Made by a program: the position numbers and the translations under genes
Source of the DNA: a virus
IMG/VR virus record: IMGVR_UViG_3300045988_070799
Span: 1 to 13,719 of that record
Strand: one strand, 5' to 3'
DNA: 13,719 nt
In this document: positions 1,451-13,719 of the stretch, piece by piece
Layout of the letters: every line of letters starts with the position of its first letter
Numbering within the stretch: position 1 is the stretch's first letter
Notes under the pieces: generated by a model
Databases searched by the model: none
Told to the model about the DNA's origin: nothing
The model's input: the letters and a program-made list of their open reading frames with translations, nothing else

Positions 1451-3466
1451 ATGTTCAGCGTATATGATGGCATTCAAAAAATAACGGCATTAACGCCTGA
1501 TAATCCACGGGCTAAAATTATATACGCTGATGCGCTGATGGCGTTTGACATTGAAACAACCCGGCTTGACGATGACAATGCCATAATGTACATCTGGCAA
1601 TGCGGGCTTTATGTAGGCGGAGAATACTATATCACATATGGGAGAACGTGGGAAGAATGGACTGCATTACAGGAAGCCTTAAATGCGCGACTGGGCGGAA
1701 TTACAATAATTTGTCTTGTTCATAATCTCTCATATGAGTTCCAATTTCTTGCAGGACTTTATGAATTTTCTGACGTTAAGTGCCTTAAAGCTCGAAAAAT
1801 ACTCTCTGCGACATGCGGTTGCATTGAATATCGTTGTTCCTACATCTGGACAAATAAAACGCTTTCAAAATTTCTGAAGGAAATGAATGTCCAGCACATG
1901 AAGAAGTCAGGAGCGGAATTTGACTATTCTAAAATCCGCTATCCGTGGACTGAACTTTCAGAAGCGGAGATTGAATATTGCCAAAATGACGTTATTGGAC
2001 TGCTTGAAGCTGCCGAAAAGAAGATTCTGCAAGATGGCGACACTCTTTATTCAGTTCCGCGCACATCTACGGGTTACGTCCGCCGGGATGCAAAACAAGC
2101 GTTAAGCCAAACACCACTCGGGGCGCTTAAACCCACAGAAGAAATTTATAGAAAACTGCGGAAGGCATTTCGTGGCGGAAACACGCACGCAAACCGTTAT
2201 TTTGTTGGCAAGGTTCTCTCCGGGGTGCAGTCCGTTGACCGTTCATCAAGTTATCCCGATGTGATGTTAAATCAGAAATTTCCGATGAAAGCATTCAAAA
2301 AATGCCCTGACGGAATCGCAACTATAAGGCGGGCGTTTGCATCTGGGCTTGCAATTCTTTGCACGATGAGCATAACAGGCGCGGCCCTGCGCAATCCGTT
2401 GTGGGGGTGCCCTTATATCCCTGTTAGCAAATGCCAAATGCTTATAAATCCTTTGGAAGATAACGGGCGTGTTCTTGAAGCGGATGCACTGACGATTGAA
2501 GTAACAGAAGTGGATATGCAGATAATTTTAGAAGAATATGACGGCGAATTCGATTTTACAGATATTTACACGGCAGAGAAGGACTATTTACCCAAGCCGT
2601 TTACTGATTGTATAAAACGCTACTACACAAACAAAACCAAACTTAAAGGCATTGAAGGGAGTGAATATGAATACATGAAAAGTAAGAATTTGTTAAATAG
2701 TCTGTACGGGATGACGGCGACAGACCCTGGAAAAGATGATATTATATTTGACGGCGACGAATATATTCAGCAGGAAACAGACGTAATTAAAAATATCAAA
2801 AAATCATTCCTTCCGTATCAATGGGGCGTATGGGTTACAGCGTACGCAAGGCTTGAGTTGGAAGAAATGATAAAGATTGCAGGGAATAATTTTGTTTATG
2901 CCGATACGGATAGCTGTAAATATATAAAATCAGCATCAATTAGTTACGAATCCTATAATAATAGATGCAAAACAATGTCACTTGAGCATGAGGCGTTTGC
3001 CGTAGACCCCCACGGAACATTTCATTACATGGGCGTTGCAGAAACAGAGGGTGAATATTTCCAGTTTTTAACATGGGGGGCGAAAAAATATGCTTCACAG
3101 GATGAACAGGGGCATATAAATATAACTATCGCAGGTGTGCGCAAAAATTCCACCAAAAATGCAGCTGGTGACATTGTGGAGTGGGGTGGTGCTGATGAAC
3201 TGGAAGAAGCAGGAGGACTTGTAAAATTCGCTCCCGGTTTTGTTTTCCGAAAAGCTGGGGGGCTTGAAAGCGTTTACAACGACCATGTATCGAAGACAAT
3301 TAGTATTGATGGGCACGAGTTACAAATAACAAGAAACGTATGTTTACGCCCTTCAACCTATGCAGTAGGAATTACATATAAATATGCGGACTTGCTCGAA
3401 GCGTTGAATAACACTTATATAAGTCTTGACGCTGACAGGAATGTGTGCTATAATCTTATTAGGTGA
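1451..3466 (+). CDS. Protein-primed family B DNA polymerase (phi29 gp2-like)
   Basis: The exonuclease motifs are present: ExoI FDIETT, ExoII HNLSYEFQF and ExoIII YCQNDVIGL. AFRGGNTH is followed by motif A VDRSSSYPDVM, then motif B KNLLNSLYGMTA, motif C VYADTDS (nt 2897-2914) and KxY GAKKYA. All occur in the canonical order. Confidence 0.97.
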   Translation: MFSVYDGIQKITALTPDNPRAKIIYADALMAFDIETTRLDDDNAIMYIWQCGLYVGGEYYITYGRTWEEWTALQEALNARLGGITIICLVHNLSYEFQFLAGLYEFSDVKCLKARKILSATCGCIEYRCSYIWTNKTLSKFLKEMNVQHMKKSGAEFDYSKIRYPWTELSEAEIEYCQNDVIGLLEAAEKKILQDGDTLYSVPRTSTGYVRRDAKQALSQTPLGALKPTEEIYRKLRKAFRGGNTHANRYFVGKVLSGVQSVDRSSSYPDVMLNQKFPMKAFKKCPDGIATIRRAFASGLAILCTMSITGAALRNPLWGCPYIPVSKCQMLINPLEDNGRVLEADALTIEVTEVDMQIILEEYDGEFDFTDIYTAEKDYLPKPFTDCIKRYYTNKTKLKGIEGSEYEYMKSKNLLNSLYGMTATDPGKDDIIFDGDEYIQQETDVIKNIKKSFLPYQWGVWVTAYARLELEEMIKIAGNNFVYADTDSCKYIKSASISYESYNNRCKTMSLEHEAFAVDPHGTFHYMGVAETEGEYFQFLTWGAKKYASQDEQGHINITIAGVRKNSTKNAAGDIVEWGGADELEEAGGLVKFAPGFVFRKAGGLESVYNDHVSKTISIDGHELQITRNVCLRPSTYAVGITYKYADLLEALNNTYISLDADRNVCYNLIR

Positions 3467-3498: not shown

Positions 3499-3849
3499 AT
3501 GAGTAACACGAAGACTAACCAGAGTATTTCCCCGGCGGAACTGTATAAGCTGACGCTTTCTCGTGAAGGGCATACGATGTCGGAGTTGATGTCGAAGACT
3601 GTGCGCGTTGATGCATGGGCGGTCACAGAAACGGTTGACAGTAACGGCGAATTTAAGCCTCGTTGCGGAATTATCGTTGACGGTGTGGCCTATATCACGA
3701 ATGGTAGAGCGTTCAGTGAACGGCTTCTTTCCATTGTTGAATATCTTTGTACGGCTGGGATGGACGATGCCGGGTTCAAATTGCAGGTTACTAAGATTCG
3801 GAGCAAGAATAACCGCGATTATACGTCTTGCGAATTGATTTTCGAGTGA
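3499..3849 (+). CDS. Candidate single-stranded DNA-binding protein (phi29 gp5-like), 116 aa
   Basis: AGGAGG (3487-3492) lies 6 nt before ATG 3499. The protein is colinear with my recollection of phi29 gp5 (DG..Y......E....IV.L.....FK.QV....SKNN..Y.S.EL). Its size and its position beside the polymerase also fit. This needs HHpred confirmation. Confidence 0.45.
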   Translation: MSNTKTNQSISPAELYKLTLSREGHTMSELMSKTVRVDAWAVTETVDSNGEFKPRCGIIVDGVAYITNGRAFSERLLSIVEYLCTAGMDDAGFKLQVTKIRSKNNRDYTSCELIFE

Positions 3850-3856
3850 CGCATAT

Positions 3857-3886
3857 AGGCAGGGCGAGAACCCTGCCTTTATTTTT
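3857..3886 (+). terminator. Rho-independent terminator after the replication module
   Basis: The stem pairs AGGCAGGG (3857-3864) with CCCTGCCT (3871-3878) around a 6-nt loop. It is followed by the run TTTATTTTT. Confidence 0.8.
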
Positions 3887-3897
3887 AGGAGGGGTGT

Positions 3898-4917
3898 ATG
3901 AATAACTTATTTTTAGAAAACGGCTACGTTGATATGGCGCGAATAATAGAACAAAAATACCCATTTATTCTTATGACGGGTGCAAGAGGGACGGGAAAGA
4001 CTTACGGTGCAATTAAATATGTGATTGAACATAAGATGAAATTTATTTATATGAGACGAACAAAACTGCAAGCGGATGTTATTAGCTCCCCCGAAATGTC
4101 ACCATTCGCACCAGTATGCGAAGATATGAGTATGGCTCTTGAAATGGATAAAGTTTCTAAAGAAGCTACTGCCGTATATATCAATGAGGAAAGTACCCCC
4201 GCTGGCTATGTTATGGCGCTGTCCGGTGTTTCAAATATTCGAGGGTTTTCCGCACATGATATTGAAATTATCATATTTGATGAATTTATACCGGAATCGC
4301 ACGAACGAAGAATAAAAAATGAAGGGGATGCATTTTTTAACGCCTACGAGACAATAAACAGAAACAGGGAGTTGCAAGGTAAGCCGCCCGTGAAGTGTTT
4401 ATGCCTTGCCAATAGCAACAGCATTGTAAACCCGATTTTCCAGAGTTTAGGGCTTATTACGATTGCATACAAAATGGCGGAGCAGGAAACGCAGGAATAC
4501 AAAAACGGTGAGCGCGGATTGTATCTAATAAACTTGCGCAATAGCCCTATTAGCCGAAAGAAGGGAGAAACTGCGCTTTATCGACTTCTAAAGGATAATA
4601 AAATAAAAGATATGTCGCTGGAAAATCGCTTTTTGGATAAACCAGTATTGCAGACCATGAGCGCGAACCTAAAAGAGTATACGCCACTTGTAACGTGTGG
4701 AGAAATTACAGTTTATCGGCACAAGAGTAACCGAACATATTATATTAGCCCGCATGGGCAAGGAACGCGCCCGATATACAGTACTACGGAAAATGATTGT
4801 TTACGATTCCGCACGCTTTATCGATATCTGATGCTGGCATACATTGAACGCAAAATATACTGTGAATCCCCTGCTTGCGAAATTGTTTTTTGCCAATATT
4901 TCGGGATAGTTAAATAA
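3898..4917 (+). CDS. DNA encapsidation (packaging) ATPase, phi29 gp16-like
   Basis: Walker A is GARGTGKT (nt 3979-4002) and Walker B is IIIFDEF. The blocks FIYMRRTK, TINRNRE and CLCLANSNSIVNPIF match phi29 gp16 blocks GARGIGKSY, FIYVRRYK, IVFDEFI, FRNRE and CICLSNAVSVVNPYF. The SD is AGGAGGGG. Confidence 0.9.
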   Translation: MNNLFLENGYVDMARIIEQKYPFILMTGARGTGKTYGAIKYVIEHKMKFIYMRRTKLQADVISSPEMSPFAPVCEDMSMALEMDKVSKEATAVYINEESTPAGYVMALSGVSNIRGFSAHDIEIIIFDEFIPESHERRIKNEGDAFFNAYETINRNRELQGKPPVKCLCLANSNSIVNPIFQSLGLITIAYKMAEQETQEYKNGERGLYLINLRNSPISRKKGETALYRLLKDNKIKDMSLENRFLDKPVLQTMSANLKEYTPLVTCGEITVYRHKSNRTYYISPHGQGTRPIYSTTENDCLRFRTLYRYLMLAYIERKIYCESPACEIVFCQYFGIVK

Positions 4918-4920
4918 GCC

Positions 4921-4949
4921 TTGACAAATATAAAAAATTATGATATATT
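4921..4949 (+). promoter_or_regulatory. Near-consensus sigma-A promoter (candidate late or lysis-capsid promoter)
   Basis: The -35 is TTGACA (4921-4926), followed by a 17-nt spacer and an extended -10 TGaTATATT (4941-4949). Confidence 0.65.
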
Positions 4950-4955
4950 AAAATC

Positions 4956-5044
4956 AGCAATAGGGAAGCTCGAACGACAACCCCGGAAGGGTGAGCACGG
5001 CATAGTCGTATGCCCAGACCCCTATTGCTATTTGTTTCCGGGGA
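4956..5044 (+). promoter_or_regulatory. Structured roughly 90-nt leader or candidate small RNA downstream of the consensus promoter
   Basis: A 10-bp helix pairs 4956-4965 (AGCAATAGGG) with 5020-5029 (CCCTATTGCT). An inner hairpin is GGCATA-gtcg-TATGCC (4999-5014). CCCCGGA (4981-4987) is complementary to TCCGGGG (5038-5044), which gives a pseudoknot-type topology. The region has no convincing ORF. Confidence 0.45.
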
Positions 5045-5059
5045 GACAGGGGGATATAT

Positions 5060-5254
5060 ATGGAAATCTCCGATATTGTTACGCTAATCACGAATGTAGG
5101 TTTTCCGATTGCGTGTACTTGTGCACTTTTCTATTTTTGGAATAAGGAGCGCGAACAGCACCGGGAAGAAACAGTGGAATTGAAGGATGCTATCAATAAT
5201 AATACGATTGTAATGCAGCACCTCATTGATAGGTTTGGCGGTGATGAAAATTGA
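5060..5254 (+). CDS. Small membrane protein, YvrJ-like; putative holin
   Basis: The 64-aa protein has a single N-terminal transmembrane segment containing the NVGFPI motif that I associate with the YvrJ family, and a charged C-terminal tail. The SD AGGGGGA precedes the start. The stop overlaps the start of the downstream NlpC/P60 gene as TTGA. Confidence 0.55.
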   Translation: MEISDIVTLITNVGFPIACTCALFYFWNKEREQHREETVELKDAINNNTIVMQHLIDRFGGDEN

Positions 5255-6095: not shown

Positions 6096-7271
6096 TTGGC
6101 TAACACGTTGACAATTGATAAGATTAGCACCCTGCTTAAAGCAGTTCTAAAGGATGCTACAGGGCAGGATACCGCAGCACTCGACACAAAGCAACTTTTG
6201 ACGCTCGGGCAGAAGACGTTGAAAACGGGCGCTGATCCTGTGATGAACGCAATTTCGCAGATGCTTTCGCGAACAATTTTTTCCAGTCGTCCCTATAAAG
6301 CGAAGTTTGAGGGTATGCGCCTTAGTGATGAGCAGTGGGGGAACTGGGTGCGAAAAATCAAAACAATCGACGACCCGGACGACCTGACCGATAATCCTTA
6401 CTGTGATTTGACAGACGGCCAGAGCGTTGACCAGTACACGATTCATAAGCCGAAGGTTGCGCAGTTTAACTTCTACGGGCAGCAAAGCTACGAATATGAA
6501 AAAACAATTTTTGAAACGCAGCTGAACACGGCGTTCAATTCTGCGGAAGATTTCGGTGCATTTATTTCGATGATTCTTACAAATATGAATAACAAAATCG
6601 AGAAGACGCACGAGGAAACCGCGCGCGCGACCGTTGCGGGGTTTGCCGCTGGCAAGATTGCACAGAAATCCGATGTTATTCATCTGCTGACTGAGTACAA
6701 CACCGTTACAGGGCTGGAATTGACTGCTACAACCGTTATGCAGCCAGCCAACTATAAAGCGTTCACACAGTGGGCGTTTTCTCGGCTTGCTAACCTGTCC
6801 GACATGCTGACAGAATATTCCAGCTTGTATCAGACCAATAGCGCGGATGGTGTATTCCTACAGCACAGCCCGAAGTCCGCACAGCGTGTATATCTTAACT
6901 CCATGTTTATGCATCAAACAAACATGATGGCGCTTGCGGATACGTACCACGACAATTTCCTTCGCATGGCGGGTGATGTTGAATATGTCAATTACTGGCA
7001 GATTATGACCGACCCACAGAAAATCAATGTTGTAAAGCCTCAGTACCTCGCGGCTGACGGCACTATTGCAACGGCGACTGCTGACGTAAAACAGGGGAAC
7101 GTTCTAGGTATTATCTGTGACCGTGACGCATTCGGATATAGCCCGATTCTGACGCGACAGCGTGTCACGCCGCCGAATGCTAAGGGCGAATACTACAACA
7201 TTTTCTGGAAGTATAACGAGAGACACATGGTGGACTTTACCGAAAAGGGAATTGTTATCCTAATGGATTAA
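6096..7271 (+). CDS. Putative major capsid protein (391 aa)
   Basis: The gene follows the scaffold candidate and is followed by a strong hairpin. Its size is typical of small podovirus HK97-fold capsid proteins. The start is TTG, with GGAGG (6082-6086) 9 nt upstream. I recall no diagnostic motif, so the call rests on synteny. Confidence 0.6.
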   Translation: MANTLTIDKISTLLKAVLKDATGQDTAALDTKQLLTLGQKTLKTGADPVMNAISQMLSRTIFSSRPYKAKFEGMRLSDEQWGNWVRKIKTIDDPDDLTDNPYCDLTDGQSVDQYTIHKPKVAQFNFYGQQSYEYEKTIFETQLNTAFNSAEDFGAFISMILTNMNNKIEKTHEETARATVAGFAAGKIAQKSDVIHLLTEYNTVTGLELTATTVMQPANYKAFTQWAFSRLANLSDMLTEYSSLYQTNSADGVFLQHSPKSAQRVYLNSMFMHQTNMMALADTYHDNFLRMAGDVEYVNYWQIMTDPQKINVVKPQYLAADGTIATATADVKQGNVLGIICDRDAFGYSPILTRQRVTPPNAKGEYYNIFWKYNERHMVDFTEKGIVILMD

Positions 7272-7277
7272 CTTAAT

Positions 7278-7360
7278 AGTAATAGCCCTGTATTCGCACA
7301 AAAAAAACAGGCCATAAGGCGCCCAAGTTAATAACATAGCAATACAGGGCTATTACTTTT
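7278..7360 (+). terminator. Long hairpin (17-bp perfect stem, 46-nt loop) plus T-run after the capsid gene; terminator or structured RNA
   Basis: AGTAATAGCCCTGTATT (7278-7294) pairs with AATACAGGGCTATTACT (7341-7357). The stem is followed by TTTT (the last stem T plus 7358-7360). Confidence 0.6.
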
Positions 7361-7430
7361 GAGGCGATTCTGTGCGATTTTCCAGAATATGTTGGTAAAT
7401 AACTTTACCAGAAAATACAGGAGGTGCAAC

Positions 7431-8178: not shown

Positions 8179-9630
8179 GTGGAAGCATGGTTCGCCAGAG
8201 TCGGGAAACGCAGAAATTCAACCTACGCGCCATCGGTAACATCTTATGAAGATAGTCTAAAATATGATGTTATTTTGAAGGATAATACAAATGTACAAAA
8301 TCCTGTTATAAGTTTAATCTGGTCAAATAACAGTTATACGCCAGAAAGTGTAAATTATGTATTTATTCCATTGTTTGAGCGCTACTATTTTGTGGAAAAT
8401 GTAACGTTTGAGCGGAACAGAGTATTTTTTGAATTGCGGACGGATGTATTAGCGTCTTTTTGGGGGCAGCTGAAGACGTCAACGCAATATGTTATCAGGT
8501 CTGCAAGCAAGTATAATTCACGCATTATAGATACTTCTTTGCCAATTTTGGCAAAAGGGGAAAAACAAACCTATGAAATAGATGGCACTGGCTATGTATC
8601 AGTTATGTCGGATGGATGGTATGTTGTAGGTATCATCGGGACGGAGGGTAACGCAGTTGGTGCTGTATCGTACTATGTAATGTCACAAACACAATTTACA
8701 TATTTTAGAAGTAAGTTGCTAACTGATTATAGTTATATGGGTGTAAATGCTGCAGAAATTTCGGCGGAACTGTTAAAAGCTATTGTAAATCCTTTCCAAT
8801 ATATCGTATCTTGTAGATGGTATCCTATAAAGCCTCCGACATTAGATACTTTAACAACTGTTAAGGTATCAGGCTGGGAATTGGCGGGCACTTCCGCGCG
8901 TCTGTTATCCTCGTCCACTGTTACAACAAAATCTTTTTACTGTGGCACTGGATATATTCAACAGGATGTATGGAAAAATTGTTATCCATATCGTCAAATA
9001 GCAATAAATCTTGCTCCATGGGGTTATTTTCAGGTCGACACAACTTCACTTACAAAATATGGAGAAAATATAACAATCAGGGCGTATATAGATTTTACAA
9101 CTGGAGGCTCAATCGCTTATTATCTGTGCGGAGCAGAGGCTAACAACTATCATGTTTTAGGAGTGCGAGAAGCCCAATTTGGCGTTGATATTCAGTTGGC
9201 GCAAACTGGATATGGGCAAGACATCATCTCAGTAGCCGGTAATGTCGCAGCTGGTGTAGGCGGTGTCGGCGCTGCGATTTTGGGGGATGCAAAAGCGATA
9301 AGTAGTGTATCTGATAGTATTAACAATATAGTGTCCTCAGTGTCAGACGGCTTTGGATCTGTATCCTCATTTTCGGCAAACGCCTCAATTGCAAAATATG
9401 CAATGCCGCAATATGTAGATGTTGTATATACATATACTGCGGACCAAAATGCCAAAATAAATGGGCGACCTCTCTGTGAAACAGTTAAATTGGAAAATTT
9501 ATCAGGATATACGCTTGTAAATAATCCAGACACTTCAACTATCACTTATTGTTACGGCGCGGAACGTGATGAAATAACACGCTATATGCAAACAGGATTT
9601 TACATAGAGGAGGCAGAAATCAGTGAATAA
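8179..9630 (+). CDS. Tail knob / distal tail tube protein (phi29 gp9-like)
   Basis: The N-terminal block NYVFIPLFERYYFVENVTFERNRVFFELRTDVLASFW is colinear with phi29 gp9 [43 protein letters not shown]. An internal Gly/Ala/Val/Ser-rich hydrophobic segment is present. The start is GTG, with GGAGG 7 nt upstream. Confidence 0.7.
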   Translation: MEAWFARVGKRRNSTYAPSVTSYEDSLKYDVILKDNTNVQNPVISLIWSNNSYTPESVNYVFIPLFERYYFVENVTFERNRVFFELRTDVLASFWGQLKTSTQYVIRSASKYNSRIIDTSLPILAKGEKQTYEIDGTGYVSVMSDGWYVVGIIGTEGNAVGAVSYYVMSQTQFTYFRSKLLTDYSYMGVNAAEISAELLKAIVNPFQYIVSCRWYPIKPPTLDTLTTVKVSGWELAGTSARLLSSSTVTTKSFYCGTGYIQQDVWKNCYPYRQIAINLAPWGYFQVDTTSLTKYGENITIRAYIDFTTGGSIAYYLCGAEANNYHVLGVREAQFGVDIQLAQTGYGQDIISVAGNVAAGVGGVGAAILGDAKAISSVSDSINNIVSSVSDGFGSVSSFSANASIAKYAMPQYVDVVYTYTADQNAKINGRPLCETVKLENLSGYTLVNNPDTSTITYCYGAERDEITRYMQTGFYIEEAEISE

Positions 9631-10546
9631 TCCACCCTTTGATTACAACCGCATAAATGCCTATGAATCGAGTATTTCCCCCTCTACTTGTCACACCAAA
9701 AACACCGCACTTTTCCAATACTATCAACGCTATTTATTCCAGAAACTAACAAGCCAATTTAAATGGAGCCTACCTGAAGGCTGGAGCGATACATATTTTC
9801 TCGGTTGCTTGTACGCATGGGGAAGCGTGGCGATTTTTAACAGTAAGCGTTACGGTGTAATTCCGCAGGCGGGCGCATTGTATGGATACAATGTTTTCTA
9901 TCAACCGACAACCGTGATGATTGCAAATCCCCTTTTGCCACCGATGCGATTGCAAATTGATAAGGATTGCGTTCTTTTCCGGTTGCAACGCGATTATCAC
10001 GGCGCGTTAGACATTGTTAATTATTACGCGGACTTACTTGCGACATCCGTTGAATCGCTTGCAATGAACATTATGAATTCTAAACTTTCCTATGTGTTCG
10101 CGTGCAGTTCTAAAAATGCCGCACAAACTGGCAAAGAATTAATGGACAGGGTAACATCTGGCGAGTTAGCTGTATGGGTGGATAAAGCCCTTTTTAATGA
10201 TGACGGTTCCCCCTCGTGGGCGCCATTCTCACAAAACGTAGGACAAAACTATATCGCGGACAAAATTCTTTCCAACATGAGACAAATTGAAGCAGAATTT
10301 GACACCCGCGTAGGGATTCCGACTTGTAACACCGACAAAAAAGAACGGTTGATTACAGCTGAAGCGGAACGGAACGACGTTGAAACAGACGCAATCGTTG
10401 CGCAATGGTTCGATACCATTCAGGATTGCATTCGCAACGTGCAGAATGCGTTCGGCGTGACAATCACTTGTGAGCGACGTTATCCGATTGAGCATAACAC
10501 AGATGGAGGTGTTAAGATTGAGCGTGATGTTGGCGACAATGTATAA
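9623..10546 (+). CDS. Portal / upper collar connector protein (phi29 gp10-like)
   Basis: The protein is 307 aa, whereas I recall about 309 aa for phi29 gp10. The blocks KKERLITAEAERNDVETDA, FKWSLPEG, GALYGYNVFYQPT and ITCERRY are colinear with gp10 blocks KKERMVTDEVSSNDEQIES, FEWENLPP, GALSGQRDVYNQAT and VKFRY. The start is GTG, with GAGGAGG 9 nt upstream. Confidence 0.85.
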   Translation: MNNPPFDYNRINAYESSISPSTCHTKNTALFQYYQRYLFQKLTSQFKWSLPEGWSDTYFLGCLYAWGSVAIFNSKRYGVIPQAGALYGYNVFYQPTTVMIANPLLPPMRLQIDKDCVLFRLQRDYHGALDIVNYYADLLATSVESLAMNIMNSKLSYVFACSSKNAAQTGKELMDRVTSGELAVWVDKALFNDDGSPSWAPFSQNVGQNYIADKILSNMRQIEAEFDTRVGIPTCNTDKKERLITAEAERNDVETDAIVAQWFDTIQDCIRNVQNAFGVTITCERRYPIEHNTDGGVKIERDVGDNV

Positions 10547-11127: not shown

Positions 11128-12579
11128 ATGGGTATTTGGGAACAATTCCCGTTTACGAATTTCCACGAACAAAATCTTGACTGGGCTTATAAGTCAATCA
11201 AAGAACTTGATGGAAGAGTTGACACGCTGGAAAAGAGCGGTAATGTAAGCAAAGAATACGTGGACGAACAGGATGCGGCGCTTGACGAAAAAATCAGCGG
11301 CGAACGTTCCGCGCGAACAACCGCAGACCAAGCACTCCAAAATCAGATTACAGCACATACTACAAGTATTAGCGGTCTAAACGGTCGAATGGTGGAAGCT
11401 GAAAAAAACATTGGCGTCAAGCCTTCTGTGCCTAATTTCAGCAGCATTTGGAGCACAATTGGCGAATACAATGCTACACAAGCAATCGGCAGTAAATTGC
11501 TTCAAGTTCAGACGGAGGGCAAAGAAAATCATCGTTCTATTGCAGGAAGTAATGGAGTGTATGATATTACCAAGGGAACTATTCAGGCGCGTTTGAATGT
11601 GATTGAGGATGCGCTGAAACCCGGCTCACTTGTAAAGCAGAACAGCTCAGCGATTATTTCCATTCCATCAAACACTGCAAGAGGTACGCGCTTTAAGCCT
11701 TCGTCAACCGTGCCGAAGTTTGACTTTGCTATTGCAGAACGTGAAACATCCATTGATACTGATGTCGGAACTTCTGATAATATCATTCTGCTGTGTTCGC
11801 CTATTATTGATGCAGCTGGCGTACAATATAATTCGTATGAAGTGGAAGCTAATTGCAAGGGAGACAAAACGCTCGAACATATGCGTGTCCGCGTGCGAAC
11901 GTTTGTATTGGTGGCGGGAGCTTCCGGCGAGCAGTATGCAACAACATCCTATGTAGATGAAAAAACTGATCAGCTGGCAACCGAATTGGGTAACGTAGAA
12001 GCAGAAGTCAAGGATGCATATACCAAAGCGGAAACAGCCGACAACAATGCCTCAATTGCCAAGTCAACCGCAACAACGGCAGCCTCTACTGCTTCTTCTG
12101 CACTGGAAAAAATCGGCACGAAACCGGCAGAATCGAAATATAACACCCTGTGGGATACAATCGGAATCTGGTCGGAAAATGTTCCGATGGCTCTCAGAAT
12201 CAATCCCGCCTTTAATTGGAGTCAGAACAATCGTTCAGCTATCAATGGCACTTCTGATTACCCTACTGATAAAGCGCCTATCAATTCGCGCTTATCCGAT
12301 TTGGAAACAGCTATTGCCAAATTCCAGAATATGCCAAAAATTGCGAGGGGCAACGTTCTGGCATACCAAGACCAAGACACCATTATTGATTATCAGTCGG
12401 CGGGATTTACCGAAATTCCGACCGTGGTTGCGACTTATGCAAACAAGGGGGCGGTTGCGGATAGTGTAACACGCAGTCAGTTGATTTTCGCCAAAACTAC
12501 AAGCTCAGCTAAAATTAGGCTTTCCGGCACGTCGACGCATGAGCAGTTCGCCGTGGACTGGATTGCAGTTGGTGTGTAA
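11128..12579 (+). CDS. Tail fibre / receptor-binding protein with an internal tandem duplication
   Basis: The protein has an N-terminal FTNFHEQNLDWAYKSIKEL motif followed by coiled-coil heptads, which is typical of Firmicute phage fibres. It contains two colinear modules (about aa 43-266 and 274-483). The C-terminus (...FTEIPTVV...FAVDWIAVGV) resembles an H-type-lectin-like knob. It is the last gene of the structural operon. Confidence 0.6.
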   Translation: MGIWEQFPFTNFHEQNLDWAYKSIKELDGRVDTLEKSGNVSKEYVDEQDAALDEKISGERSARTTADQALQNQITAHTTSISGLNGRMVEAEKNIGVKPSVPNFSSIWSTIGEYNATQAIGSKLLQVQTEGKENHRSIAGSNGVYDITKGTIQARLNVIEDALKPGSLVKQNSSAIISIPSNTARGTRFKPSSTVPKFDFAIAERETSIDTDVGTSDNIILLCSPIIDAAGVQYNSYEVEANCKGDKTLEHMRVRVRTFVLVAGASGEQYATTSYVDEKTDQLATELGNVEAEVKDAYTKAETADNNASIAKSTATTAASTASSALEKIGTKPAESKYNTLWDTIGIWSENVPMALRINPAFNWSQNNRSAINGTSDYPTDKAPINSRLSDLETAIAKFQNMPKIARGNVLAYQDQDTIIDYQSAGFTEIPTVVATYANKGAVADSVTRSQLIFAKTTSSAKIRLSGTSTHEQFAVDWIAVGV

Positions 12580-12581
12580 CA

Positions 12582-12611
12582 ATAAAGGGAGGGCATTGCC
12601 CTCCCTTTATT
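12582..12611. terminator. Bidirectional rho-independent terminator between convergent operons
   Basis: The stem pairs AATAAAGGGAGGGC (12582-12594) with GCCCTCCCTTTATT (12598-12611) around a 3-nt loop. The arms are A/T-rich at both distal ends. The right arm contains the stop codon of the minus-strand gene. Confidence 0.85.
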
Positions 12612-12852
12612 CACCCCATGCAGTTAGATGCACGCCCCCACGAAACCTGGTTGCAACCCAGCGATACCCCCCGGCACGGCGGCGGCAATACAGCTTTGCG
12701 CACTGCACTGCGGAATCGCACTCAGTTGCGCCTTTAAGCGCCTTCAATGCCATTTTTCGCGTGTAAAAATGATACCGAAAAACATCCGCCCCATGCGCAA
12801 AAACCTCATGCCCGTCTGCATCGTAACAAACGAGTACATAATTAGTAAGCAT
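12607..12852 (-). CDS. Hypothetical protein (81 aa) with a GC-rich, Arg/Gly/Cys-rich C-terminal half
   Basis: GGGAGGA lies 7 nt upstream of ATG 12852. I trimmed the ORF-track start at 12945. This is the last gene of the right-arm operon. I recognise no domain. Confidence 0.55.
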   Translation of the reverse strand: MLTNYVLVCYDADGHEVFAHGADVFRYHFYTRKMALKALKGATECDSAVQCAKLYCRRRAGGYRWVATRFRGGVHLTAWGE

Positions 12853-13069
12853 CCATCTTCCTCCCTTTATATAATCTCTCATAGATTCGGACTTGTTCAA
12901 CTCCACAAAGCGGCTCATCGATTGAACGCGCCATAAATTCTGCACTGGTTATGCGGTTAACTATGTTGACTCCCTCCAATACTGTCCAATAGTAGTGACG
13001 TCTTGTAAAGGTGCACCCCTTGCGGTGCAAGTCTTCAATTTGAGAATGTGTTAGTCTTGCCTGTTTCAT
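12842..13069 (-). CDS. Hypothetical protein (75 aa)
   Basis: ATG 13069 lies 8 nt after AAGGGG and overlaps the stop of the upstream gene as ATGA. The GTG at 13078 is too close to the SD to be the start. Confidence 0.55.
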   Translation of the reverse strand: MKQARLTHSQIEDLHRKGCTFTRRHYYWTVLEGVNIVNRITSAEFMARSIDEPLCGVEQVRIYERLYKGRKMDAY

Positions 13070-13459: not shown

Positions 13460-13719
13460 TTCCCCTTTCTGGTTTGTGAGGTTTTCCTTCCTCTTTACAA
13501 GTATATAATAGCACGTTCAACGGCTATTGTGAAGATACTGTTAGTTGATTTTGAGGACGAATTTTTTCTACTAACAGTTGAGTTAACAAATGCGTTATAT
13601 AACAGACGTTATATATTGAATGTTGTTTATAAGTGAGTTAGGGTTGACTAATAGGCAGATAGTTATAACTAACTCGCAGACGGTGGGGAAATGACAATTA
13701 TTTTTTTATTACAGGAATA
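13460..13719. repeat. Right inverted terminal repeat (ITR-R)
   Basis: This is the reverse complement of 1-259 with one extra T in the run 13482-13485. It ends exactly at the last base of the window. Confidence 0.97.
13505..13533 (-). promoter_or_regulatory. Identical promoter copy inside ITR-R, facing inward
   Basis: This is the mirror image of 187-215: -10 TATTAT is the reverse complement of 13505-13510, and -35 TTCACA is the reverse complement of 13528-13533. It lies upstream of the minus-strand ATG at 13456. Confidence 0.5.

What the first reader, a model, noticed from the sequence alone, without database searches (positions are those of the whole stretch)
4921..5059. A consensus promoter drives a roughly 90-nt highly structured leader next to the gp16-like ATPase, making it a candidate pRNA-like RNA or riboregulator
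TTGACA-17-TGaTATATT is the best promoter in the genome. Downstream there is no credible ORF for about 100 nt. Instead there is a closing 10-bp helix (4956-4965 / 5020-5029), an internal hairpin with loop GUCG (5005-5008), a single-stranded CGAC (4975-4978) complementary to that loop, and a 7-nt pairing (4981-4987 / 5038-5044) that crosses the closing helix and ends just before the holin SD. phi29-type gp16 motors use a packaging RNA with an end-pairing helix and complementary loops. No pRNA-sized non-coding gene is evident elsewhere in this genome. The element is shorter than phi29 pRNA, and the 4-nt loop complementarity could be chance. It may instead simply control holin-lysin-capsid translation.
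Basis: partly seen in the sequence, partly recalled or inferred. Interest (0 to 1): 0.7.

Follow-up and report, generated by a model that had tools for sequence, protein, structure and literature searches.

The report
Mini pRNA-like RNA heading late operon
A strong promoter in this tiny phi29-like gut phage makes a conserved ~75-base three-armed RNA built like the core of phi29's DNA-packaging RNA. It may be the first packaging RNA found outside Bacillus phages, but it could instead be a regulatory leader for the late genes.

Summary
A consensus promoter (4921-4949) starts transcription at about 4956, at the foot of a 10-bp helix (4956-65/5020-29). That helix closes a three-way junction with two arms. 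One arm carries an 8-nt 5' bulge and a CGGAA-looped hairpin. The other is a hairpin with loop GUCG.

A covariance model finds one copy per genome in 73 of 85 related sequences, and diverged copies in more distant phages, including the cultured Amedibacillus phage AD70P3. All helices covary. The bulge/loop complementarity also covaries, with at least 12 different sequences. This is the hallmark of the phi29 pRNA CE-loop/D-loop pairing, in the same arm order.

It is an 8-nt box (5036-43) just before the SD, complementary to the E arm plus loop, and it covaries in at least 8 clades.

The element tracks the start of the late operon, not the ATPase gene. Rfam holds nothing like it.

Best reading (~0.5): a miniature packaging RNA made as the late-transcript leader. 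Main rival (~0.3): a cis-acting riboregulator. It is a new RNA family either way.

The parts
4921..4949 (+). Sigma-70-type promoter: -35 TTGACA (4921-26), 17-nt spacer with extended -10 TG (4941-42), -10 TATATT (4944-49). Predicted start at about A4956/G4957, the first base of helix A.
   Evidence: 11/12 match, TG present. An equivalent promoter whose -10 ends 0-10 nt (mode 4-6) before helix A is present in every clade examined.
4956..5029 (+). Core structured RNA (74 nt). Helix A 4956-65/5020-29. Junction AA 4966-67. Helix C 4968-71/4993-96. 5' bulge GAACGACA 4972-79. Helix E 4980-83/4989-92 with loop CGGAA 4984-88. Junction AC 4997-98. Helix D 4999-5004/5009-14 with loop GUCG 5005-08. Junction CAGAC 5015-19.
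   Evidence: MFE fold. RNAalifold. CM R1 gives 63.9 bits, E = 6e-17, and one hit per related genome. 24 of 25 pairs show double changes; covariation score 0.675 against 0.203 in shuffles, 0/500.
4974..4978 (+). Bulge nucleotides ACGAC, complementary to GUCGU 5005-5009. This is the equivalent of the right-hand (CE) loop.
   Evidence: Same-molecule complementarity averages 4.5 nt against 2.4 nt cross-molecule. 80% paired at four fixed positions against 49% in shuffles (maximum 60% in 2000). 21 distinct 4-mer combinations.
5005..5009 (+). D-loop nucleotides GUCG(U), complementary to the bulge. This is the equivalent of the left-hand (D) loop.
5030..5037 (+). U-rich tract AUUUGUUU directly after helix A. 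Possible leaky intrinsic termination point, giving an RNA of about 80 nt.
   Evidence: The window clade has 6-9 T in the 10 nt after helix A. The L037 clade instead has a separate canonical terminator hairpin plus U-run here. Other clades have neither. The simple terminator scan did not call it.
5036..5043 (+). Box UUCCGGGG, the reverse complement of the helix-E 5' arm plus loop (CCCCGGAA 4981-88). It is mutually exclusive with helix E and forms only in read-through RNA.
   Evidence: arm positions covary in at least 8 clades (C:G, G:C, U:A, A:U; for example L069 CAGCCGGA/UCCGGCUG, L059 UCUCGGA/UCCGAGA). L095 ACGGACGGA/UCCGUCCGU; duplex -14.4 kcal/mol against -4.3 for the E hairpin.
5048..5254 (+). 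SD AGGGGGA (5048-54) and the first late gene (5060-5254). It encodes a 64-aa holin-like membrane protein.
   Evidence: weak YvrJ match; phrog_4898 holin, E = 5e-4. Homologues with the VGFPI motif follow the element in most clades.
3898..4917 (+). gp16-type packaging ATPase (context only; not part of the RNA).
   Evidence: Pfam PF05894, E = 1e-19. 28% identity to phi29 gp16 over residues 25-301.

Best explanation
The region is the gene for a small structured RNA. Host RNA polymerase starts at the consensus promoter, at about position 4956. The first 74 nt fold into a three-way junction closed by helix A.

One arm (helix C, an 8-nt 5' bulge, and hairpin E with the near-invariant loop CGGAA) and the other arm (hairpin D) carry 4-6 complementary nucleotides, in the bulge and in the D loop. 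This is the architecture of the prohead-binding core of phi29 pRNA, in the same 5'-to-3' order.

I infer that it is the packaging RNA of this group of ~13-kb phi29-like gut podoviruses.

The free RNA would arise by leaky termination at helix A plus the U-run (5030-37) or by processing. Polymerases that read through make the late mRNA (holin-like protein, lysin, capsid, tail). In that longer RNA the box 5036-43 pairs with the E arm and loop and unfolds hairpin E. I infer that this keeps mRNA-tethered copies out of the motor, tunes translation of the first late gene, or both.

Shown: the promoter, the fold, the covariation of all helices, of the kissing pair and of the box, and the family's distribution.

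Inferred: that the kissing is intermolecular, any role in packaging, the 3' end of the RNA, and the purpose of the box.
For: 1. The structure is real and under selection.
- CM R1 finds one hit per genome in 73 of 85 sources at 34-77 bits. It finds weaker hits at the expected place in L092, L034 and L090, L095, L096 and L099, and 16 further contigs.
- 83% of cells are paired against 57% in shuffles, covariation is 0.675 against 0.203 (0/500), and the slide control peaks at 0.

2. The kissing pair covaries. This is the criterion the pRNA field itself uses, together with gp10 and gp16 in the same genome (PMC12670572).

3. The arm order equals that of phi29 pRNA, as shown by the Rfam structure line for phi29: A helix, C helix, 9-nt 5' bulge, E hairpin, C 3' strand, D hairpin, A 3' strand.

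4. The genome is phi29-like. It has protein-primed PolB, a gp16-type ATPase, a phi29-type capsid protein, a gp10-type connector and a 259-bp ITR. I saw no other conserved structured non-coding RNA in it.

5. There are signs of a discrete RNA.
- The predicted start site lies at the first base of helix A in all clades.
- The window clade has a U-run after helix A.
- The L037 clade has a canonical terminator after helix A.
- In a sister clade (33 loci, for example L136) the same site holds a larger RNA of about 110 nt. It has its own strong promoter and a canonical terminator, followed by a separate late promoter flanked by palindromic sites. That makes it a free-standing RNA gene.

6. Sequence conservation is low outside the E loop while the structure is strict. 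Bacillus pRNAs behave the same way (12% sequence similarity; PMC5066667).
Against: - No match to Rfam RF00044, even at E <= 10.
- Helix A is only 10-16 bp and has no conserved bulge. In phi29, bases 1-28/92-117 of the A helix are required for DNA packaging (PMC5066667).
- The portal lacks the basic N-terminus: VNNPPFDYNRINAY here against MARKRSNTYRSINEIQRQKRNR in gp10. From my own knowledge of the literature, that segment binds pRNA in phi29.
- Arms C and D are of similar length (4-6 bp). The bulge/loop pairing could therefore form within one molecule, as in purine or THF riboswitches (my own knowledge), and nothing here shows it is intermolecular.
- The element is always at the 5' end of the late transcript.
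- In some clades (L087, L074) the SD follows helix A directly with no terminator, so a free RNA would need processing.
- The covarying box shows that the read-through form is itself under selection, as expected for a cis-regulator.
- Homology between the mini element and the large RNA of the L136 clade is not established.
Confidence: 0.5

Rival explanations
1. It is a cis-acting riboregulator of the late operon. The three-way junction, locked by an intramolecular bulge/D-loop pseudoknot, is a sensor domain in the 5' leader. Its invariant E loop binds a phage or host factor. When hairpin E is not stabilised, its 5' arm and loop pair with the box next to the SD. This changes translation of the first late gene, or the fate of the transcript. 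The RNA has no role in packaging.
For: - The element always heads the late operon, whatever the genome arrangement.
- The box pairing covaries and is mutually exclusive with helix E in at least 8 clades. It is thermodynamically competitive (-14.4 against -4.3 kcal/mol; alternative fold -19.3 against native -16.1).
- In clades without a box, the E 5' arm matches the SD region itself: L023 and L082 CCUC/GAGG, L081 AGCCC/GGGCU, L091 CGCCC/GGGCG.
- In L087 and L074 the SD abuts helix A.
- Equal C and D arm lengths allow a cis pseudoknot.
- The portal lacks the phi29 pRNA-binding N-terminus.
Against: - The junction nucleotides are poorly conserved, unlike ligand-binding riboswitch cores (alignment).
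- The box is missing in several clades: L040, L071, L074, L075, L076, L080, L083 and AD70P3.
- The downstream gene is not constant. It is holin-like in most, but scaffold-like or another gene in L071, L090 and AD70P3.
- The L037 clade puts a constitutive canonical terminator with no antiterminator alternative between the element and the box.
- The positional counterpart in the L136 clade is separated from the late mRNA by a terminator and a second promoter.
- Under this reading, the identity of topology with pRNA in a phi29-like phage would be a coincidence.
Confidence: 0.32
2. It is a cis-acting element that modifies or protects the transcript without sensing anything. One version is a processive antitermination RNA (like HK022 put or Bacillus EAR) that lets polymerase read through the leader terminator and the strong hairpin after the capsid gene. 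The other version is simply a 5'-terminal stabiliser that protects the 7.6-kb late mRNA from 5'-end-dependent decay.
For: - The structure starts at the very 5' end of the transcript.
- Terminator-like signals follow it in some clades.
- A very stable hairpin lies inside the operon after the capsid gene (7272-7363, z = -7.2).
Against: - put RNAs are two stem-loops, not a three-way junction with a pseudoknot (my own knowledge), and no Rfam family matches.
- A plain stabiliser needs only a terminal hairpin. It would not need an invariant apical loop, a covarying kissing pair or a covarying box.
- The post-capsid hairpin is not conserved in sequence among close relatives.
Confidence: 0.12
3. It is a chance structure or a short protein-coding region with no RNA-level function.
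For: A loose topological descriptor finds 0.29 such structures per shuffled genome. ORFs formally overlap the region.
Against: There is one significant CM hit per genome across many clades, 24 of 25 pairs carry compensatory changes, and indels are incompatible with coding. At the real element's stringency there were 0 hits in 400 shuffles.
Confidence: 0.01

Closest known systems
phi29-family prohead/packaging RNA (pRNA; Rfam RF00044; Bacillus phages of Salasmaviridae)
   Same: - A small RNA of a protein-primed phi29-like podovirus that encodes gp16-type ATPase and gp10-type connector.
- The 5' and 3' ends pair in helix A, which closes a three-way junction.
- The arm order is A, then C/E, then D.
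- The C/E arm has a 7-9-nt bulge on the 5' side only and a 4-bp E hairpin.
- 4-6 nt of that bulge are complementary to the D loop, and the two covary.
- Sequence is poorly conserved while structure is strictly conserved.
- It is driven by a strong host-type promoter.
   Different: - 70-85 nt instead of 120-174 nt.
- Helix A is 10-16 bp and perfect, instead of about 25 bp with essential bulges.
- Helix C is 4-6 bp instead of about 10 bp.
- The junction linkers are 2/2/5-7 nt instead of 1/3/0 nt.
- The E loop is the near-invariant CGGAA.
- It is encoded at the head of the late operon and fused to the late mRNA leader, not as an early gene at the left genome end.
- It has a downstream box that can unfold hairpin E.
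- The portal lacks the basic N-terminal pRNA-binding segment.
- No match to the Rfam model.
- Function in packaging is untested.
Riboswitch-type leaders with a three-way junction and a loop-to-bulge or loop-to-loop tertiary pairing (purine and THF riboswitches)
   Same: It is a 5' leader of about 70 nt. A P1-like closing helix and two roughly equal side-by-side arms are bridged by Watson-Crick tertiary pairing. An alternative pairing connects the structured domain to the region next to the SD.
   Different: - The junction core is not conserved.
- The tertiary helix is hypervariable in sequence.
- The switch sequence pairs with an apical hairpin arm and loop, not with the P1 strand.
- The box is absent in several clades.
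- No ligand is suggested by the gene context (phage structural and lysis genes).
HK022 put and Bacillus EAR processive-antitermination RNAs
   Same: A structured RNA encoded right after a phage or operon promoter, acting on the same transcript, with terminator-like signals downstream.
   Different: The secondary structure differs. No sequence or structure match was found, and no evidence of antitermination was obtained here.

Membership tests
phi29-type pRNA | Match to the curated covariance model (Rfam RF00044) | tested here: not met
   No hit at E <= 10 in the window. The model finds phi29 (145 bits) but not the genuine B103 pRNA at gathering score, so it is narrow and this failure has little weight.
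phi29-type pRNA | 5' and 3' ends paired in helix A, closing a three-way junction with arm order A, C/E (5'-side bulge plus E hairpin), D hairpin | tested here: met
   for the element. structure line for phi29.
phi29-type pRNA | [quoted passage not shown] | tested here: met
   at least 12 different kissing sequences; 80% paired against 49% in shuffles.
phi29-type pRNA | The loop pairing is intermolecular and builds a ring on the prohead | not testable with these tools
   This needs native gels or AUC, trans-complementation of loop mutants, or cryo-EM. Equal arm lengths leave a cis pseudoknot possible.
phi29-type pRNA | Long A helix (bases 1-28/92-117 in phi29) with bulges, required for DNA translocation and gp16 function | tested here: not met
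   Helix A is 10 bp in the window and up to 16 bp in relatives, perfect, with no conserved bulge. The requirement in phi29 is taken from PMC5066667.
phi29-type pRNA | Genome also encodes gp16-type ATPase, gp10-type connector and protein-primed replication | tested here: met
phi29-type pRNA | Connector with a basic N-terminal segment (MARKRSN...) that binds pRNA | tested here: not met
   The window portal starts VNNPPFDYNRINAYESS. phi29 gp10 starts MARKRSNTYRSINEIQRQKRNR. The role of that segment is from my own knowledge of the literature.
phi29-type pRNA | Independent transcription unit giving a discrete small RNA | tested here: inconclusive
   It always has its own strong promoter. A terminator or U-run is present only in some clades, and the SD abuts helix A in others. 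A free-standing unit is seen only for the larger RNA of the L136 clade.
phi29-type pRNA | Bound to proheads; packaging is RNase-sensitive | not testable with these tools
   Experimental only.
Riboswitch or cis-regulatory leader | Located in the 5' UTR of the regulated gene, with a mutually exclusive alternative pairing reaching the expression signals | tested here: inconclusive
   Met in at least 8 clades, where the box pairing covaries. The box is absent in about 8 other clades, and the element is uncoupled from the mRNA in the L136-type arrangement.
Riboswitch or cis-regulatory leader | Highly conserved unpaired core nucleotides forming a ligand pocket | tested here: not met
   The junction strands vary. 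Only the E loop CGGAA, the A before helix E, and a few junction purines are conserved (alignment). The E loop itself changes to CCGAA, CAGAA or GUGACA in distant clades.
Intrinsic terminator or attenuator | G+C-rich stem immediately followed by a U-run | tested here: inconclusive
   Helix A is followed by AUUUGUUU in the window. It was not called by the hairpin-based scan, and the U-run is not conserved across clades.

The most novel reading that the evidence does not exclude
The RNA is bifunctional. As a free ~80-nt molecule it is a miniature packaging RNA that oligomerises on the portal. As the 5' leader of the read-through late mRNA, the same fold is a switch: the box unfolds the E hairpin, which I presume binds the prohead. 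This masks mRNA-tethered copies that would otherwise poison the motor, and could couple expression of the holin and late genes to the state of head assembly. It would be the first pRNA outside Bacillus phages and the first one wired into gene regulation.
Probability: 0.2. Interest if true: 0.92.

Novelty: new variant of a known kind. Interest (0 to 1): 0.8.

Why it matters
For nearly 40 years pRNA has been regarded as unique to phi29 and its Bacillus relatives. Reviews from 2016 and 2024 still say so (PMC5066667, PMC11476376), and a 2025 structure-based search found new pRNAs only in Bacillus phages (PMC12670572).

How the many other phi29-like phages dock their nuclease-less gp16-type ATPase has been an open question. 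This work identifies a concrete candidate that is widespread, with hundreds of gut-virome genomes carrying the ATPase family. It is also present in cultured phages (Amedibacillus AD70P2/P3), so the question becomes directly testable.

If confirmed, a ~70-nt pRNA would do three things:
- define the minimal functional core of pRNA;
- inform models of motor evolution;
- supply new self-assembling three-way-junction modules for RNA nanotechnology.

If it is instead a cis-regulator, it is still a new, abundant structured RNA family with a pseudoknot and a covarying switch that controls phage late genes.

Tried and rejected
- **Rfam scan of the window at E <= 10.** Nothing in the region. The only hits are terminator look-alikes near 12570-12660.
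- **Rfam pRNA model as a membership test.** It is too narrow, because it misses B103.
- **First MAFFT alignment.** It put helices A and D, and the kissing pair, out of register for the window clade. I corrected this with CM alignment and my own fixed-register count.
- **A generic pRNA-topology descriptor for finding analogues in other small podoviruses.** The genomes were CI461P1, LE1-1, Bifidobacterium BP1, Microbacterium Evcara and metagenomic contigs. At loose settings it gives many false positives and nothing convincing.
- **The best new candidate, Evcara 72-148.** It folds as a plain long hairpin, so I dropped it.
- **The very stable hairpin after the capsid gene (7272-7363) as an alternative pRNA.** Rejected. 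Its loop is deleted or the whole hairpin is replaced by an unrelated one in 94-97%-identical relatives.
- **C-arm against D-arm lengths as a cis/trans discriminator.** No trend (by eye).
- **Cross-molecule control for the box.** It is weak because all boxes share CCGG (mean 5.8 against 5.0). The evidence for the box rests on covariation at the arm positions.
- **Homology between the mini element and the ~110-nt RNA of the L136 clade.** I could not establish it. The kissing partners sit in different places.

Full report
**Context**

The window is a complete 13.7-kb linear genome with 259-bp inverted terminal repeats. Its gene set is that of a phi29-like podovirus:
- protein-primed type-B DNA polymerase (1451-3466);
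- gp16-type packaging ATPase (3898-4917; 28% identical to phi29 gp16);
- holin-like gene (5060-5254);
- NlpC/P60 lysin;
- phi29-type major capsid protein (6096-7271);
- tail lysozyme;
- gp10-type connector (9623-10546).

It belongs to a very large group of ~13-kb phages from gut viromes. The ATPase has 1779 homologues in the protein collection. The nearest cultured relatives are Amedibacillus phages AD70P2 and AD70P3 (Guelinviridae; ATPase about 35% identical).

**Check of the observation**

- the promoter TTGACA-17-TGaTATATT (4921-4949), which ties for best in the genome with 3426-3454;
- the perfect 10-bp helix 4956-65/5020-29;
- the hairpin with loop GUCG;
- the single-stranded CGAC;
It extends to 8 bp: 4981-88 with 5036-43.

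I wrote a descriptor for this topology: closing helix, an arm with a 5' bulge and a hairpin, a second hairpin, and bulge/loop complementarity.
- It finds only this site in the window, on either strand.
- Loose thresholds give 0.29 hits per shuffled genome.
- Thresholds just under the real values give 0 hits in 400 shuffles.

**Comparative evidence**

Thirteen close relatives (ATPase 93-97% identical) keep the core 4956-5032 almost invariant, while the promoter spacer, the downstream spacer and even the first late gene vary.

Eighty more distant loci (ATPase 41-70% identical) show the same arrangement: promoter, structured element, then the first late gene. I built a covariance model from 30 diverse copies.
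- It finds exactly one hit per locus in 73 of 85 sources, always at that place, at 34-77 bits.
- The 12 misses are eight loci whose late operon lies outside the fetched flank, plus four diverged copies. Three of those four are recovered with filters off. The fourth (L086) is recognisable by eye in the output.

On the model alignment (49 distinct sequences):
- 24 of 25 base pairs show changes on both sides;
- 83% of cells pair, against 57% in shuffles;
- the covariation score is 0.675 against 0.203 (0/500);
- sliding the partners destroys the signal.

RNAalifold independently recovers helices C and E, with compensatory changes in seven of their eight pairs.

Covariation fixes hairpin E as 4 bp closed on a pentaloop CGGAA. 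That loop is invariant in this set. In more distant clades it becomes CCGAA, CAGAA, GGAA or GUGACA.

**The kissing pair**

The 7-8-nt bulge on the 5' side of the C/E arm is complementary to the D loop in every clade, and the sequences differ between clades:

| Locus | Bulge / D loop |
|---|---|
| window | ACGAC / GUCGU |
| L023 | ACACC / GGUGU |
| L069 | GGUCA / UGACC |
| L043 | GACCA / UGGUC |
| L051 | AGUCA / UGACU |
| L079 | GCACA / UGUGC |
| L036 | UUGCA / UGCAA |
| L055 | GAAACC / GGUUUC |
| L080 | UGCAC / GUGCA |
| L087 | GAUCA / UGAUC |
| L074 | UAGG / CCUA |

- The longest Watson-Crick match within a molecule averages 4.5 nt, against 2.4 nt between molecules.
- In a fixed register, four core positions pair in 80% of sequences. 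Shuffles give 49%, with a maximum of 60% in 2000 shuffles.
- The slide control peaks sharply at zero, and there are 21 distinct combinations.

It is selected.

**The box**

A 6-9-nt box lies just 5' of the SD of the first late gene. It is the reverse complement of the E-helix 5' arm plus loop, and the arm positions covary. Examples:

| Locus | E arm + loop / box |
|---|---|
| window | CCCCGGAA / UUCCGGGG |
| L069 | CAGCCGGA / UCCGGCUG |
| L032 | GGCCGGA / UCCGGCC |
| L059 | UCUCGGA / UCCGAGA |
| L037 | AUCCCGG / CCGGGAU |

Two further cases were read from sequence print-outs: L095 ACGGACGGA / UCCGUCCGU and L097 GCCGGAA / UUCCGGC.

- The pairing cannot coexist with helix E.
- It is much stronger than helix E: duplex -14.4 against hairpin -4.3 kcal/mol.
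- Several clades lack the box. In some of them the E arm matches the SD region itself.

**What the element is linked to**

It is not linked to the ATPase gene as such. In phages whose late operon is inverted, the element sits kilobases from the ATPase gene. It is still immediately behind a consensus promoter and in front of the first late gene.
- MT835998 (L095): element at 12898-12968 on the minus strand, ATPase at 3588-4607.
- L177 and L186 show the same arrangement.

The first late gene is holin-like in most clades. It is a different gene (scaffold-like by its sequence) in L071, L090 and AD70P3.

In all clades the -10 box ends 0-10 nt (mode 4-6) before helix A, so the transcript should begin at the foot of helix A.

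What follows helix A varies:
- a U-run in the window clade (6-9 T of 10);
- a separate canonical terminator in the L037 clade;
- A/U-rich spacer in others;
- the SD directly in L087 and L074.

**A larger RNA at the same site**

In a sister clade (33 of 80 contigs in the second sampling) the same site carries an RNA of about 110 nt.
- It has its own TTGACT-17-TATAAT promoter.
- Its two-segment helix A shows compensatory changes between subclades.
- A hairpin loop UGUAC is complementary to an upstream GUACA, with one compensatory change.
- A canonical terminator follows.
- Only after the terminator come two GTTTCACGTGAAAC palindromes, a weak-35/good-10 late promoter, and the holin-like gene.

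In that clade the RNA is therefore a free-standing gene. I could not show that it is homologous to the mini element. Rfam has no match for it.

**Comparison with phi29 pRNA**

The Rfam model recovers phi29 pRNA from the phi29 genome. Its structure line shows helix A, helix C, a 9-nt 5' bulge, hairpin E, the helix C 3' strand, UUU, hairpin D, and the helix A 3' strand. This is the same order and the same one-sided bulge as here. In phi29, bulge bases pair with the D loop of the next molecule.

The field accepts new pRNAs on three criteria: a three-way junction, covarying right- and left-hand loops, and gp10 and gp16 in the same genome (PMC12670572). The present element meets all three.

It differs in these ways:
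- size, about 74 nt against 117 nt for domain I;
- a short, unbulged helix A, whereas the phi29 A helix is needed for translocation (PMC5066667);
- short C helix and different junction linkers;
- its place in the genome and its fusion to the late leader;
- the box;
- a connector without the basic N-terminus of gp10.

Current literature holds pRNA to be restricted to Bacillus phages (PMC5066667, PMC11476376, PMC12670572). The Clostridium podovirus paper PMC3362512 mentions pRNA only in describing the encapsidation protein.

**Interpretation**

Two readings fit most of the data.

1. A miniature pRNA made from the late promoter. This explains:
   - the topology;
   - the hypervariable but always matched kissing sequences;
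   - the start at helix A;
   - the terminators where they are present;
   - the free-standing RNA gene in the sister clade;
   - why a phi29-like phage with a gp16-type ATPase has no other RNA candidate.

   Under this reading the box would unfold hairpin E in read-through mRNA, which might otherwise deliver an RNA with a 7-kb tail to the motor. That is an inference.

2. A cis-acting riboregulator with an intramolecular pseudoknot. This explains:
   - the constant position at the head of the late operon;
   - the covarying box;
   - the clades where the SD abuts helix A.

   The equal arm lengths make a cis pseudoknot sterically plausible.

The two readings are not mutually exclusive. I put about 0.5 on a packaging function (with or without a cis role). 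I put about 0.3 on a purely cis riboregulator, about 0.1 on antitermination or stabilisation, and about 0.01 on no function.

Independently of function, the existence of a new, widespread, strongly covarying RNA family is about as certain as comparative analysis allows.

Noticed in passing
L136:5486-5765 (and 32 other loci, for example L131, L146, L149, L187): A sister clade carries a larger RNA of about 110 nt at the same site. It has its own strong promoter, a covarying two-part closing helix, a GUACA/UGUAC long-range complement and a canonical terminator. A separate late promoter follows. This is a free-standing, undescribed RNA gene with no Rfam match.
   Followed up: partly
L136:5668-5725; also just upstream of the element's promoter in L037-type loci (about L037:3525-3550): The palindrome GTTTCACGTGAAAC (two copies in L136) lies around the -35 region of the late promoter. 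It looks like an operator for a late-gene activator or repressor, analogous in position to the p4 sites of phi29. The window itself has no such palindrome.
   Followed up: no
window:7272-7363: A very stable long hairpin (17-bp perfect stem plus extensions, 45-nt loop; -41 kcal/mol, z = -7.2) lies between the capsid gene and the tail-lysozyme gene. Its 3' arm overlaps the next gene's start. In 94-97%-identical relatives the loop is shortened, or the whole hairpin is replaced by an unrelated long hairpin. The structure, not the sequence, is kept. It may be an attenuator, a processing site or a 3' stabiliser for the capsid message.
   Followed up: partly
window:1-259 and 13460-13719: 259-bp inverted terminal repeats, perfect for 237 bp. 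Each carries an inward-facing promoter-like site with an extended -10 (187-215 on +, 13533-13505 on -). This is far longer than the 6-bp ITR of phi29.
   Followed up: no
window:3426-3454 and 3857-3878: A second 11/12 promoter with TG lies inside the 3' end of the polymerase gene. A good intrinsic terminator (8-bp stem, 6 G-C pairs, U-run) lies just before the ATPase gene. The ATPase would therefore be expressed only by read-through or from an unrecognised promoter.
   Followed up: no
window:5045-5100 compared with L002, L005, L008-L010, L012, L013 (alignment A1 columns about 150-199): Among phages whose ATPase is 93-97% identical, the first late gene occurs as two clearly different alleles (ATGGAAATCTCCGAT... 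and GTGGATGTAACAACC...). The switch falls right at the 3' edge of the RNA element, which suggests a recombination boundary there.
   Followed up: no
window:12569-12617: A strong bidirectional terminator hairpin (AAAGGGAGGGCAUUGCCCUCCCUUU) lies at the end of the late operon. It produced the only sub-threshold Rfam hits (STnc320, sraA), which are terminator look-alikes.
   Followed up: no
L094:5833-5935 (Amedibacillus phage AD70P3, OP172639) and L112: A cultured phage carries a diverged copy of the element. It has TTGACA-17-TGATATATT, helix A TGAGGG/CCCTCA, bulge AUAUCCAA, E loop CCGAA and D loop GGGAU. It has no box, and the element precedes a lysine/glutamate-rich protein rather than a holin. 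The record does not annotate it.
   Followed up: partly
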